Made by a program: the position numbers and the translations under genes. Below, piece by piece: positions 39,514 to 44,189 of a DNA stretch of 64,000 nucleotides. The notes beneath the pieces were generated by a model. That model made no database searches. It was given only the letters and a program-made list of their open reading frames with translations, and was not told the origin of the DNA. How positions within the stretch are numbered: position 1 is the stretch's first letter; each line of letters opens with the position of its first letter. This stretch comes from Escherichia coli (lineage in GTDB: Bacteria; Pseudomonadota; Gammaproteobacteria; Enterobacterales; Enterobacteriaceae): NCBI RefSeq assembly GCF_003334815.1, contig NZ_QOWO01000007.1, one strand, 5' to 3'.

Positions 39514-40512
<999 letters not shown>

Positions 40513-40528
40513 TTTCTTGCGTTATTTT

Positions 40529-40575
40529 CGGCACCTTTTATGTAGCGAAGGTGCCGGAATATATTCTCTTTTGTT
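40529..40575 (+). terminator. putative cysB terminator
   Basis: cggcacctt...aaggtgccg hairpin then T-rich tract. Confidence 0.55.
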
Positions 40576-40830
40576 ACTTATTTCTATACCGTGCACAATA
40601 TTTTTATCCCTCATATTTATAGGGTAAATTACCTGTAAAGTAGTGTCTAATTACCCGCCTCGCAAACTCCAGTTTTCAAATATCTATTTCAGGTCAAAAG
40701 ATTGAATTATTCACTGGAGACGATTCGTAAATTCGCTGGATTTTTGACTAAAGTTTCTTTAGGATTTGTCTCATCGTATGATTAATTACACCAATCGTTC
40801 AACGTCTTGCTGATAAGTGATGGCGATTAT

Positions 40831-40971
40831 ATGAGGTTAGCAATGCCTTCTGGAAATCAGGAACCCCGCCGCGATCCTGAATTAAAACGTAAAGCCTGGC
40901 TGGCGGTTTTTCTTGGTTCTGCACTTTTCTGGGTGGTTGTCGCACTGCTGATTTGGAAAGTGTGGGGATAA
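40831..40971 (+). CDS. ymiA: small single-TM protein
   Basis: 46-codon ORF MRLAMPSGNQEPRRDPELKRKAWLAVFLGSALFWVVVALLIWKVWG; name from memory, unverified. Confidence 0.55.
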   Translation: MRLAMPSGNQEPRRDPELKRKAWLAVFLGSALFWVVVALLIWKVWG

Positions 40972-40973
40972 CT

Positions 40974-41141
40974 ATGGTCGGTCAGGAGCAACTGGAGTCG
41001 TCACCATTATGCCAGCATAGTGACAATGAAACAGAAACGAAACGGGAATGTTCCGTCGTTATTCCAGACGACTGGCAACTAACATCGCAGCAGCAAGCCT
41101 TTATAGAACTGTTTGCTGAAGATGATCAGCCGAAACAATAA
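40974..41141 (+). CDS. yciX: small acidic protein of unknown function
   Basis: 55-codon ORF MVGQEQLESSPLCQHSDNETETKRE... starting 2 nt after ymiA stop; name from memory, unverified. Confidence 0.55.
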   Translation: MVGQEQLESSPLCQHSDNETETKRECSVVIPDDWQLTSQQQAFIELFAEDDQPKQ

Positions 41142-41513
41142 TTATCATCATTCTTATTACCCATTTTTAATGAATTAAAGGGCTTTTAATACACCGCAGC
41201 AATAACAGCTTGAGTTATCTCAACACAAAATAATAACCGTTAAGGGTGTAGCCTATGATCAACACAAATATGAAATATTGGTCCTGGATGGGCGCGTTTT
41301 CTCTGTCGATGCTCTTCTGGGCCGAACTCCTCTGGATCATTACTCACTGATCCTTGACCCCGCTGCGGCGGGGTTGTCATTTGCTTTGCCACAAGGTTTC
41401 TCCTCTTTTATCAATTTGGGTTGTTATCAAATCGTTACGCGATGTTTGTGTTATCTTTAATATTCACCCTGAAGAGAATCAGGGCTTCGCAACCCTGTCA
41501 TTAAGGAGGAGCT

Positions 41514-44189
41514 ATGTCGTCAACCCTACGAGAAGCCAGTAAGGACACGTTGCAGGCCAAAGATAAAACTTACCACTACTACAGCCTGCCGCTTGCTGCT
41601 AAATCACTGGGCGATATCACCCGTCTACCCAAGTCACTCAAAGTTTTGCTCGAAAACCTGCTGCGCTGGCAGGATGGTAACTCGGTTACCGAAGAGGATA
41701 TCCACGCGCTGGCAGGATGGCTGAAAAATGCCCATGCTGACCGTGAAATTGCCTACCGCCCGGCAAGGGTGCTGATGCAGGACTTTACCGGCGTACCTGC
41801 CGTTGTTGATCTGGCGGCAATGCGCGAAGCGGTTAAACGCCTCGGCGGCGATACTGCAAAGGTTAACCCGCTCTCACCGGTCGACCTGGTCATTGACCAC
41901 TCGGTGACCGTCGATCGTTTTGGTGATGATGAGGCATTTGAAGAAAACGTACGCCTGGAAATGGAGCGCAACCACGAACGTTATGTGTTCCTGAAATGGG
42001 GAAAGCAAGCGTTCAGTCGGTTTAGCGTCGTGCCGCCAGGCACAGGCATTTGCCATCAGGTTAACCTCGAATATCTCGGCAAAGCAGTGTGGAGTGAATT
42101 GCAGGACGGTGAATGGATTGCTTATCCGGATACACTCGTTGGTACTGACTCGCACACCACCATGATCAACGGCCTTGGCGTGCTGGGGTGGGGCGTTGGT
42201 GGGATCGAAGCAGAAGCCGCAATGTTAGGCCAGCCGGTTTCCATGCTTATCCCGGATGTAGTGGGCTTCAAACTTACCGGAAAATTACGTGAAGGTATTA
42301 CCGCCACAGACCTGGTTCTCACTGTTACCCAAATGCTGCGCAAACATGGCGTGGTGGGGAAATTCGTCGAATTTTATGGTGATGGTCTGGATTCACTACC
42401 GTTGGCGGATCGCGCCACCATTGCCAATATGTCGCCAGAATATGGTGCCACCTGTGGCTTCTTCCCAATCGATGCTGTAACCCTCGATTACATGCGTTTA
42501 AGCGGGCGCAGCGAAGATCAGGTCGAGTTGGTCGAAAAATATGCCAAAGCGCAGGGCATGTGGCGTAACCCGGGCGATGAACCAATTTTTACCAGTACGT
42601 TAGAACTGGATATGAATGACGTTGAAGCGAGCCTGGCAGGGCCTAAACGCCCACAGGATCGCGTTGCACTGCCCGATGTACCAAAAGCATTTGCCGCCAG
42701 TAACGAACTGGAAGTGAATGCCACGCATAAAGATCGCCAGCCGGTCGATTATGTTATGAACGGACATCAGTATCAGTTACCTGATGGCGCTGTGGTCATT
42801 GCTGCGATAACCTCGTGCACCAACACCTCTAACCCAAGTGTGCTGATGGCCGCAGGCTTGCTGGCGAAAAAAGCCGTAACTCTGGGCCTCAAGCGGCAAC
42901 CATGGGTCAAAGCGTCGCTGGCACCGGGTTCGAAAGTCGTTTCTGATTATCTGGCAAAAGCGAAACTGACACCGTATCTCGACGAACTGGGGTTTAACCT
43001 TGTGGGATACGGTTGTACCACCTGTATTGGTAACTCTGGGCCGCTGCCCGATCCTATCGAAACGGCAATCAAAAAAGGCGATTTAACCGTCGGTGCGGTG
43101 CTGTCCGGCAACCGTAACTTTGAAGGCCGTATCCATCCGCTGGTTAAAACTAACTGGCTGGCCTCGCCGCCGCTGGTGGTTGCCTATGCGCTGGCGGGAA
43201 ATATGAATATCAACCTGGCTTCTGAGCCTATCGGCCATGATCGCAAAGGCGATCCGGTTTATCTGAAAGATATCTGGCCATCGGCACAAGAAATTGCCCG
43301 TGCGGTAGAACAAGTCTCCACAGAAATGTTCCGCAAAGAGTACGCAGAAGTTTTTGAAGGCACAGCAGAGTGGAAGGGAATTAACGTCACACGATCCGAT
43401 ACCTACGGTTGGCAGGAGGACTCAACCTATATTCGCTTATCGCCTTTCTTTGATGAAATGCAGGCAACACCAGCACCAGTGGAAGATATTCACGGTGCGC
43501 GGATCCTCGCAATGCTGGGGGATTCAGTCACCACTGACCATATCTCTCCGGCGGGCAGTATTAAGCCCGACAGCCCAGCGGGTCGATATCTACAAGGTCG
43601 GGGTGTTGAGCGAAAAGACTTTAACTCCTACGGTTCGCGGCGTGGTAACCATGAAGTGATGATGCGCGGCACCTTCGCCAATATTCGCATCCGTAATGAA
43701 ATGGTGCCTGGCGTTGAAGGGGGGATGACGCGGCATTTACCTGACAGCGACGTAGTCTCTATTTATGATGCTGCGATGCGCTATAAGCAGGAGCAAACGC
43801 CGCTGGCGGTGATTGCCGGGAAAGAGTATGGATCAGGCTCCAGTCGTGACTGGGCGGCAAAAGGTCCGCGTCTGCTTGGTATTCGTGTGGTGATTGCCGA
43901 ATCGTTTGAACGAATTCACCGTTCGAATTTAATTGGCATGGGCATCCTGCCGCTGGAATTTCCGCAAGGCGTAACGCGTAAAACGTTAGGGCTAACCGGG
44001 GAAGAGAAGATTGATATTGGCGATCTGCAAAACCTACAACCCGGCGCGACGGTTCCGGTGACGCTTACGCGCGCGGATGGTAGCCAGGAAGTCGTACCCT
44101 GCCGTTGTCGTATCGACACCGCGACGGAGTTGACCTACTACCAGAACGACGGCATTTTGCATTATGTCATTCGTAATATGTTGAAGTAA
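41514..44189 (+). CDS. acnA: aconitate hydratase A
   Basis: 891 aa [48 protein letters not shown]. Confidence 0.97.

What the first reader, a model, noticed from the sequence alone, without database searches (positions are those of the whole stretch)
41255..41350. Candidate 31-aa hydrophobic small protein between yciX and acnA
ATG at 41255, preceded by aaggg 8 nt upstream, opens a 31-codon ORF MINTNMKYWSWMGAFSLSMLFWAELLWIITH with one predicted transmembrane segment rich in Trp/Phe. It sits in the 370-bp acnA upstream region on the same strand as ymiA-yciX. It may correspond to one of the later-named ymi small-protein genes; I cannot verify that without a database.
Basis: seen in the sequence. 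Interest (0 to 1): 0.35.

Follow-up and report, generated by a model that had tools for sequence, protein, structure and literature searches.

The report
Known small membrane protein gene ymiC
The 31-codon ORF is real, but it is the already named and experimentally validated E. coli small membrane-protein gene ymiC, so the finding is correct and not new.

Summary
The ORF at 41255-41350 (+) is exactly as described. It is the annotated gene ymiC ("small membrane protein YmiC", WP_001310756.1). It matches NCBIfam NF041484 (66.3 bits, cut-off 42) and Pfam PF23694 (87.4 bits, 1-31/31). The identical 31-aa sequence was published in 2018 after chromosomal epitope tagging. A 2025 study reports induction at low Mg2+ that depends on PhoQP, as part of a ymiA-yciX-ymiC operon. 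It also reports membrane localisation of a GFP fusion and no phenotype on deletion or overexpression.

A 31-codon ORF here is not beyond chance (46% of shuffles), so the support comes from conservation. Orthologues of 30-33 aa lie between ymiA/yciX and acnA in 12 other Enterobacteriaceae loci. Their differences are mostly synonymous (pN 0.19-0.36, pS 0.5-0.95).

Three further points:
- Rfam's "sRNA" STnc180 (41182-41384, 198 bits) is this coding transcript segment.
- Every orthologue is followed by a terminator-like hairpin.
- About 27% of complete E. coli genomes carry a 14-bp deletion that removes the hairpin's 3' arm.

The biochemical function is still unknown. The most likely mode of action is binding to a larger membrane protein. 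Novelty: already known. Interest is low.

The parts
41255..41350 (+). ymiC coding sequence (31 codons plus TGA)
   Evidence: ORF. RefSeq CDS ymiC/WP_001310756.1 at the same coordinates (locus 1656-1751 maps to window 41255-41350). NF041484 66.3 bits. PF23694 87.4 bits. Identical to the published sequence.
41242..41246 (+). Shine-Dalgarno-like AAGGG, 8 nt before the ATG
   Evidence: Orthologues carry GGTG, GAGG or GAGT 7-10 nt before the homologous ATG. M6 is not conserved, which supports M1 as the start.
41356..41388 (+). Terminator-like hairpin (arms 41357-41363 and 41368-41374, loop TGCG) with an interrupted T tail (TGTCATTTGCTTTG). It starts 6 nt after the ymiC stop.
   Evidence: Scan hit and fold of -20.6 kcal/mol. 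A GC hairpin with a T run follows 11 of the 12 other orthologues within the 70 nt shown. In L008 it lies further downstream. Stem sequences differ between genera. No function was shown here. No 3' end at this position turned up in the held Term-seq tables.
41182..41384 (+). Match to Rfam RF02079 'STnc180'. It covers the leader, the ymiC ORF and the hairpin.
   Evidence: 198 bits against a gathering score of 50, model positions 1-208/208. The model consensus itself contains the AUG...UAA reading frame.
41188..41205 (+). Conserved non-coding motif AATACAC-N2-CAGCAATA(A), about 60 nt upstream of the ymiC ATG. Its role is unknown (promoter/TSS or RNA element).
   Evidence: Alignment of 14 loci.
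41210..41223 (+). Small leader hairpin TTGAG-TTAT-CTCAA
   Evidence: Helix 4: 87.5% of cells paired, and 3 of 4 pairs show changes on both sides across genera.
40831..40971 (+). ymiA (46 aa), first gene of the operon
   Evidence: RefSeq annotation. NF000536 96.8 bits.
40974..41141 (+). yciX (55 aa), middle gene of the operon
   Evidence: RefSeq annotation. No NCBIfam hit.
41514..44189 (+). acnA (aconitate hydratase A), the downstream neighbour

Best explanation
The ORF is ymiC, a real protein-coding gene for a 31-residue single-pass inner-membrane protein. It is the last cistron of the ymiA-yciX-ymiC small-protein operon between cysB and acnA. According to the literature the operon is induced at low Mg2+ in a PhoQ/PhoP-dependent way, and a hairpin directly after the stop codon probably ends most of its transcription before acnA. 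These parts are shown: identity, coding constraint, synteny, and (from the literature) synthesis, membrane location and regulation. The mechanism is inferred. Like MgtS, MgrB, PmrR and AcrZ, YmiC most likely works by packing its transmembrane helix against a larger membrane protein, or against its operon partner YmiA, and changing that protein's activity or stability under envelope or Mg2+ stress. The packing would use the invariant KYWSW motif at the membrane interface, the stripe W11-A14-F15-S18-F21-W22-L25, and the conserved mid-membrane E/Q24. My confidence is about 0.98 for identity and coding status, and about 0.35 for the partner-binding mechanism.
For: RefSeq annotation at the exact coordinates. 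ymiC is annotated in 30 of 30 and 59 of 60 sampled E. coli genomes, and matching DNA is present in 5422 of 5426. NF041484 scores 66.3 bits against a cut-off of 42, and PF23694 scores 87.4 bits over 1-31/31. Literature: the published sequence is identical, the authors list YmiC among the small proteins their chromosomal epitope-tag screen identified, and they note it was also a positive in a tetracycline ribosome-profiling screen (PMC6001520). Low-Mg2+ induction depends on PhoQ and comes from the region upstream of ymiA; GFP-YmiC is at the cell periphery (PMC11429745). Orthologues fetched by acnA synteny alone (L004, L006, L007, L008) and by profile search (L083-L092) keep a 30-33-codon frame. 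K7, Y8, W9, W11, S18, L20 and W22 are invariant, and position 24 is E or Q in 12 of 13. pN is 0.19-0.36 against pS 0.5-0.95, and differences by codon position are 91/48/138. No other frame is open in all orthologues. The context is always topA-cysB-ymiA-(yciX)-ymiC-acnA.
Against: No partner, phenotype or activity is known. Deletion and overexpression had no effect at low Mg2+. The gene is dispensable in some lineages: it is absent in E. albertii NBRC 107761 and C. werkmanii, and rare frameshift or stop-loss variants exist in the protein library. The conservation stripe is only suggestive, with a helical conservation moment of 0.07. I found no PhoP box with 2 or fewer mismatches upstream of ymiA, so the PhoQP dependence may be indirect.
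Confidence: 0.85

Rival explanations
1. ymiC acts mainly as an upstream ORF or leader for acnA. In this view, translating it modulates the hairpin 6 nt after its stop codon and so sets how much transcription from the ymiA promoter, or from a distal acnA promoter, reads into acnA. The peptide would be secondary.
For: Adams et al. 2021 list ymiC-acnA among validated small ORFs with a 3' end less than 200 nt downstream. In K-12 the hairpin starts 6 nt after the stop, within reach of a terminating ribosome. The K-12 T tract is interrupted, so termination may be partial. From memory, not verified here: Cunningham, Gruer and Guest 1997 reported a distal acnA promoter about 400 bp upstream, which would put ymiC in that transcript's leader.
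Against: The 3' end flagged 'uORF' in that paper's table is at MG1655 1335835, 4 nt inside acnA. That is not at the ymiC hairpin, and it was not Rho-dependent. The distance from stop to hairpin ranges from about 5 to more than 70 nt among orthologues, so there is no conserved coupling geometry. About 27% of E. coli genomes lack the hairpin's 3' arm yet keep ymiC intact. The amino-acid sequence is under purifying selection, and the protein is reported as detected after tagging and as membrane-localised as a GFP fusion.
Confidence: 0.1
2. The region is a non-coding or dual-function Hfq-associated sRNA (STnc180), and the ORF is incidental or secondary.
For: Rfam RF02079 matches 41182-41384 at 198 bits and matches 11 of 13 other ymiC loci. 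Reads in Salmonella were enriched 5-fold in the Hfq co-IP, 5 against 1. The Rfam structure is 72.9% paired on my 12-sequence alignment, against 34-49% when the partners are slid. The leader hairpin and the terminator show compensatory changes.
Against: The original paper found no small RNA, only a band of about 2000 nt, and called it a likely processed mRNA. The Rfam consensus contains the ymiC frame. Variation is concentrated at third codon positions. RNAalifold predicts no consensus structure on the MAFFT alignment. The paired-cell excess is expected in part because the structure was derived from these same kinds of sequence. The family hits only loci that have the ORF.
Confidence: 0.05
3. 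It is a chance ORF in an intergenic spacer that was over-annotated.
For: 46% of shuffles of the spacer give an ORF this long. There is no phenotype.
Against: There is cross-genus conservation with ω well below 1. The ORF is identical to a published protein reported as identified by chromosomal epitope tagging. A GFP fusion localises to the membrane.
Confidence: 0.01

Closest known systems
YmiC of E. coli K-12 (WP_001310756.1; NCBIfam NF041484; Pfam PF23694)
   Same: The sequence, coordinates and neighbours are identical.
   Different: Nothing. It is this gene.
Rfam RF02079 STnc180 (Salmonella sRNA candidate between cysB and acnA)
   Same: It covers the same DNA, 41182-41384, full-length and far above the gathering score.
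   Different: It is filed as an sRNA, but the segment carries a conserved, translated ORF. In the original study it gave only a band of about 2000 nt.
PhoQP/Mg2+-stress small membrane proteins MgrB, MgtS and PmrR
   Same: They are also single-TM proteins under 50 aa, and YmiC was grouped with them as induced at low Mg2+. They act by binding larger membrane proteins (general knowledge).
   Different: There is no sequence relationship: only the YmiC model hits at E of 0.1 or lower. No partner is known for YmiC, and it has no deletion or overexpression phenotype.
YmiA (NF000536), the operon partner
   Same: It is a small one-TM protein in the same operon. It is present in all ymiC-carrying loci examined.
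   Different: It belongs to a different family. YmiA overexpression delays growth, and YmiC overexpression does not. C. werkmanii has ymiA and yciX without ymiC.
Regulatory uORFs coupled to termination (for example mdtU-mdtJI)
   Same: It is a short ORF upstream of a larger gene with a hairpin just after the stop codon.
   Different: The geometry is not conserved. The hairpin is deleted in many strains. The peptide is reported as detected after tagging and is conserved.

Membership tests
YmiC (NCBIfam NF041484 / Pfam PF23694) | Score above the curated model cut-off over the full length | tested here: met
   NF041484 scores 66.3 bits against a cut-off of 42. PF23694 scores 87.4 bits over 1-31/31.
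YmiC (NCBIfam NF041484 / Pfam PF23694) | Identity with the named K-12 gene, in sequence and position | tested here: met
   The RefSeq CDS ymiC is at the same coordinates. The published 31-aa sequence is identical and lies between yciX and acnA.
YmiC (NCBIfam NF041484 / Pfam PF23694) | Conserved synteny cysB-ymiA-(yciX)-ymiC-acnA | tested here: met
YmiC (NCBIfam NF041484 / Pfam PF23694) | Reading frame under purifying selection | tested here: met
   pN is 0.19-0.36 against pS 0.5-0.95. Differences by codon position are 91/48/138.
YmiC (NCBIfam NF041484 / Pfam PF23694) | The protein is made and is located in the membrane | not testable with these tools
   Literature only. The 2018 epitope-tag screen lists YmiC among the proteins it identified, and a GFP fusion sits at the cell periphery. 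The hydropathy computed here is consistent with one TM segment.
Rfam RF02079 STnc180 sRNA | Covariance-model score above the gathering threshold | tested here: met
   198 bits against 50.
Rfam RF02079 STnc180 sRNA | Conserved secondary structure supported by covariation | tested here: inconclusive
   RNAalifold finds no consensus structure. The Rfam structure is 72.9% paired and shows compensatory changes, mainly in the leader hairpin and the terminator. The helices inside the ORF are rich in G-U pairs and are confounded by codon conservation.
Rfam RF02079 STnc180 sRNA | A discrete small non-coding transcript | not testable with these tools
   The literature argues against it. The Northern band was about 2000 nt and was called a 'likely processed mRNA'.
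Termination-coupled regulatory uORF of acnA | Conserved short spacing between the uORF stop and the terminator stem | tested here: not met
   The spacing ranges from about 5 to more than 70 nt.
Termination-coupled regulatory uORF of acnA | The terminator is retained wherever the uORF is retained | tested here: not met
   1484 E. coli genomes carry a 14-bp deletion of the 3' arm and still have an intact, annotated ymiC.
Termination-coupled regulatory uORF of acnA | uORF translation changes acnA expression | not testable with these tools
   No data. The 3' end reported in the literature is at acnA +4, not at the hairpin.
PhoP-activated small membrane regulators (MgrB/MgtS type) | A PhoP box at the operon promoter | tested here: not met
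   The best matches upstream of ymiA have 3 mismatches out of 12. The literature still shows PhoQ-dependent reporter activity.
PhoP-activated small membrane regulators (MgrB/MgtS type) | Sequence homology to MgrB, MgtS or PmrR | tested here: not met
   Only the YmiC model matches at E of 0.1 or lower.
PhoP-activated small membrane regulators (MgrB/MgtS type) | Binds and modulates a larger membrane protein | not testable with these tools
   Inference only.

The most novel reading that the evidence does not exclude
The ymiC segment may be more than a small-protein gene. It could be a regulatory junction between the Mg2+/PhoQP-responsive ymiA operon and acnA. In the roughly 27% of E. coli genomes (including Nissle 1917, the type strain ATCC 11775 and SF-468) where 14 bp of the hairpin are deleted, operon transcription would read into acnA. 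That would couple aconitase A to PhoQP in those strains but not in K-12. Independently, the conserved leader motif and hairpin (41188-41223) could mark a separate, condition-specific ymiC/STnc180 transcript with an RNA-level role.
Probability: 0.12. Interest if true: 0.4.

Novelty: already known. Interest (0 to 1): 0.08.

Why it matters
As a discovery it does not matter, because the gene is named, annotated, modelled in NCBIfam and Pfam, and experimentally validated. It does show that the first-stage reader can pick a real 31-codon gene out of raw sequence. Three by-products are modestly useful. First, the Rfam sRNA family STnc180 is the ymiC coding transcript segment, so the family appears to be mis-typed. 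Second, a common natural deletion of the hairpin could change acnA regulation in a large group of E. coli strains. Third, YmiC's biochemical function is still open.

Tried and rejected
It returned only 9 Enterobacterales loci among 80, so Salmonella and Klebsiella were not sampled directly. Salmonella is covered only indirectly, through the Rfam consensus and Sittka 2008.
- A PhoP-box scan upstream of ymiA found nothing with 2 or fewer mismatches.
- The sigma-70 consensus scan gave no plus-strand promoter in 40500-41600.
- RNAalifold on the STnc180-region alignment gave no structure.
- A literature search for the acnA P1/P2 promoter paper found nothing in the held library. The distal acnA promoter is therefore cited from memory only.
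- The Adams 2021 supplements contain no 'ymiC' entry and no 3' end at 133568x-133570x.
- The helical conservation moment for the TM segment was low, 0.07, so the 'conserved face' is only suggestive.
- Structure prediction was not attempted, because a 31-residue single helix would not be informative.

Full report
**1. Observation**

The window around the finding is the E. coli cysB-ymiA-yciX-acnA region.
- An ATG at 41255 opens a 31-codon ORF that ends with TGA at 41348-41350. It encodes MINTNMKYWSWMGAFSLSMLFWAELLWIITH.
- AAGGG lies at 41242-41246, 8 nt upstream of the ATG.
- The yciX stop is at 41141 and the acnA ATG at 41514, so the spacer is 372 bp. All of these genes are on the + strand.
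- The peptide has a GRAVY of 0.61. Its most hydrophobic 19-21-residue window is residues 10/12-30.

The ORF by itself is not statistically remarkable: 46% of shuffles of the 372-bp spacer contain an ATG ORF at least this long on the same strand.

**2. Identity**

A megablast search of 41100-41520 against 5,426 complete E. coli genomes finds the region in 5,422. Every row of a 30-row sample spread across the ranking lists "ymiC: small membrane protein YmiC".
- In a K-12 record the ymiC CDS (WP_001310756.1) maps exactly to window 41255-41350.
- NCBIfam NF041484 (membrane_YmiC, equivalog) scores 66.3 bits against a cut-off of 42.
- Pfam PF23694 (YmiC-like) scores 87.4 bits over model positions 1-31 of 31.
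- In a 60-row spread sample using the ORF alone, 59 rows carry the annotation. The one exception is the older Sakai record.

**3. Literature**

- VanOrsdel et al. 2018 (PMC6001520) list ymiC between yciX and acnA at MG1655 1335572-1335667, with this exact sequence. It is among the new small proteins identified by their chromosomal 3' epitope-tagging screen. They note it was also an unidentified positive in a tetracycline ribosome-profiling screen.
- Vellappan et al. 2025 (PMC11429745) place YmiC among 17 small proteins induced at low Mg2+. The region upstream of ymiA shows PhoQ-dependent reporter activity, and the region immediately upstream of ymiC shows negligible activity. They assign ymiC to a ymiA-yciX-ymiC operon and see GFP-YmiC at the cell periphery. 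Deletion and overexpression had no effect.
- Adams et al. 2021 (PMC7815308) mention ymiC-acnA as a possible uORF case.

**4. Independent conservation test**

I fetched loci by AcnA synteny, without reference to ymiC. I also ran a profile search of 1.84 billion representative proteins and followed it with context look-ups.
- Twelve non-E. coli Enterobacteriaceae loci carry a 30-33-codon ORF at the same place. The context is always topA-cysB-ymiA-(yciX)-ymiC-acnA.
- K7, Y8, W9, W11, S18, L20 and W22 are invariant. S10, A14, F15 and F21 are nearly invariant. Position 24 is E or Q in 12 of 13 sequences.
- For the 25-codon core, pN is 0.19-0.36 and pS is 0.5-0.95, which is saturated. Differences by codon position are 91/48/138.
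- No alternative frame on either strand stays open in all orthologues.
- The family is small: 19 representatives at E of 0.001 or lower, several of them frameshifted or fused variants.
- The gene is not universal. E. albertii NBRC 107761 has a deletion running from just after the ymiA promoter-like block into the 3' end of ymiC, and it keeps the hairpin. C. werkmanii has ymiA and yciX but no ymiC. Acerihabitans, Photorhabdus and Providencia have cysB next to acnA, or an unrelated spacer.

**5. Surroundings**

(a) Hairpin after the stop codon.
- A GC-rich hairpin (arms 41357-41363 and 41368-41374) begins 6 nt after the stop codon. It is followed by an interrupted T tract.
- Eleven of the 12 other orthologues show a GC hairpin with a stronger T run within the 70 nt after the stop. 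In L008 the hairpin lies further downstream. Stem sequences differ between genera, and the distance from the stop ranges from about 5 to more than 70 nt.
- The likely meaning is an operon terminator that separates ymiC from acnA. This is inferred, not shown. The held Term-seq tables of Adams et al. have no 3' end at this position. Their "uORF"-flagged 3' end is at 1335835, 4 nt inside acnA.

(b) Hairpin deletion polymorphism.
- Strain SF-468 lacks 14 bp (window 41366-41379), which removes the 3' arm of the hairpin.
- A junction-spanning query is covered in 1,484 genomes, including Nissle 1917 and ATCC 11775. The K-12 version is covered in 3,896 genomes.
- Because outgroups and E. albertii have the hairpin, the deletion is the derived state.

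(c) Overlap with an Rfam family.
- Rfam RF02079 "STnc180" matches 41182-41384 at 198 bits, full length. It also matches 11 of the other 13 ymiC-bearing loci and none of the loci that lack ymiC.
- Its consensus contains the ymiC reading frame, which translates to approximately MINTNMKYWSWIGAFSVSILFWAELIWIVFH. This indicates a Salmonella orthologue.
- Sittka et al. 2008 listed STnc180 as a predicted candidate between acnA and cysB. It had 1 control read and 5 Hfq co-IP reads, gave a Northern band of about 2000 nt, and was called a likely processed mRNA.
- The "sRNA family" is therefore the ymiC leader, ORF and hairpin.
- RNAalifold finds no consensus structure on my alignment. Counting pairs of the Rfam structure gives 72.9% paired, against 34-49% when the partners are slid. 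The clearest compensatory changes are in a small leader hairpin (41210-41223) and in the terminator. The helices inside the ORF are ambiguous, and the comparison is biased because the structure was derived from such sequences.

(d) Conserved leader motif.
- A conserved non-coding motif, AATACAC-N2-CAGCAATA (41188-41205), precedes the leader hairpin. Its role is unexplained. The consensus promoter scan did not call a + strand promoter there, and the literature reporter for this region was inactive at low Mg2+.

**6. Mechanism**

Shown here or in the literature: the ORF is a conserved, translated, membrane-located 31-aa protein in a stress-induced three-gene small-protein operon.

Inferred: YmiC most likely acts as other small membrane proteins do, by binding a larger membrane protein or YmiA through its TM helix. 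The invariant KYWSW block would sit at the cytoplasmic interface; the authors predicted the N-terminus to be inside. W11-A14-F15-S18-F21-W22-L25 fall on one helical face, and a conserved E/Q lies in the membrane core. I give this about 0.35, since no partner or phenotype is known.

The rivals are:
- a uORF for acnA (0.1);
- an sRNA or dual-function RNA (0.05);
- a chance ORF (0.01).

The reasons for each score are set out in the rival-explanations section.

**7. Verdict**

The feature is already known, and interest is low. The side observations are the mis-typed Rfam family, the hairpin deletion polymorphism, the conserved leader motif and the strongly conserved acnA promoter/5' UTR. They are recorded for anyone who wants to follow them up.

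Noticed in passing
window 41366-41379 (compare L002 1052-1100): A 14-bp deletion removes the 3' arm of the hairpin after ymiC in about 27% of complete E. coli genomes: 1,484 with the deletion junction against 3,896 with the K-12 version. The deletion strains include Nissle 1917, ATCC 11775 and SF-468. Outgroups have the hairpin, so the deletion is derived. It might let ymiA-operon transcription run into acnA.
   Followed up: partly
window 41182-41384: The Rfam family RF02079 'STnc180' is typed as an sRNA but is co-extensive with the ymiC leader, ORF and hairpin. Its consensus contains the reading frame. The original study saw only a band of about 2000 nt. The family looks like a mis-typed coding segment.
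   Followed up: yes
window 41188-41223: A conserved non-coding motif, AATACAC-N2-CAGCAATA, is followed by a small hairpin (41210-41223) whose stem changes by compensatory substitutions across genera. It could be a promoter/TSS with a 5' stem-loop, or a processing or binding site. It is unexplained.
   Followed up: partly
window 41400-41513: The acnA proximal region is almost invariant across Enterobacteriaceae (TTATCAATTTGGGTTGTTATCAAAnCGTTACG ... TTTGTGTTATCTTTAAT). It is followed by an ACCCTG-N8-CAGGG hairpin (41468-41485) and, in most genera, a second CCCTG (41493-41497) that could pair with the same CAGGG just before the SD AAGGAGGAG. There is no Rfam family at the gathering threshold. Adams 2021 record a 3' end at acnA +4 (MG1655 1335835).
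   Followed up: partly
L003 about 2240-2500; L005 about 2050-2500: E. albertii NBRC 107761 has lost ymiA, yciX and most of ymiC in one deletion, but it keeps the ymiA-upstream block and the hairpin. Citrobacter werkmanii keeps ymiA and yciX but has unrelated sequence and no hairpin where ymiC would be.
   Followed up: partly
window 40700-40830: The region upstream of ymiA has strongly conserved blocks (GTCAAAAGATT, AAATTCACTGGATTTT, TTAGGATTTGTCTCA, GATTAAT) but no PhoP box with 2 or fewer mismatches. This is despite the reported PhoQ-dependent activity, so the regulation may be indirect or may use a degenerate site.
   Followed up: partly
proteins P0001, P0008, P0009, P0012, P0013, P0015, P0018, P0019: The protein library holds rare YmiC variants with a lost stop codon (a 63-aa read-through in the hairpin-deletion background), frameshifts or internal deletions. 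These point to occasional inactivation in individual strains.
   Followed up: no
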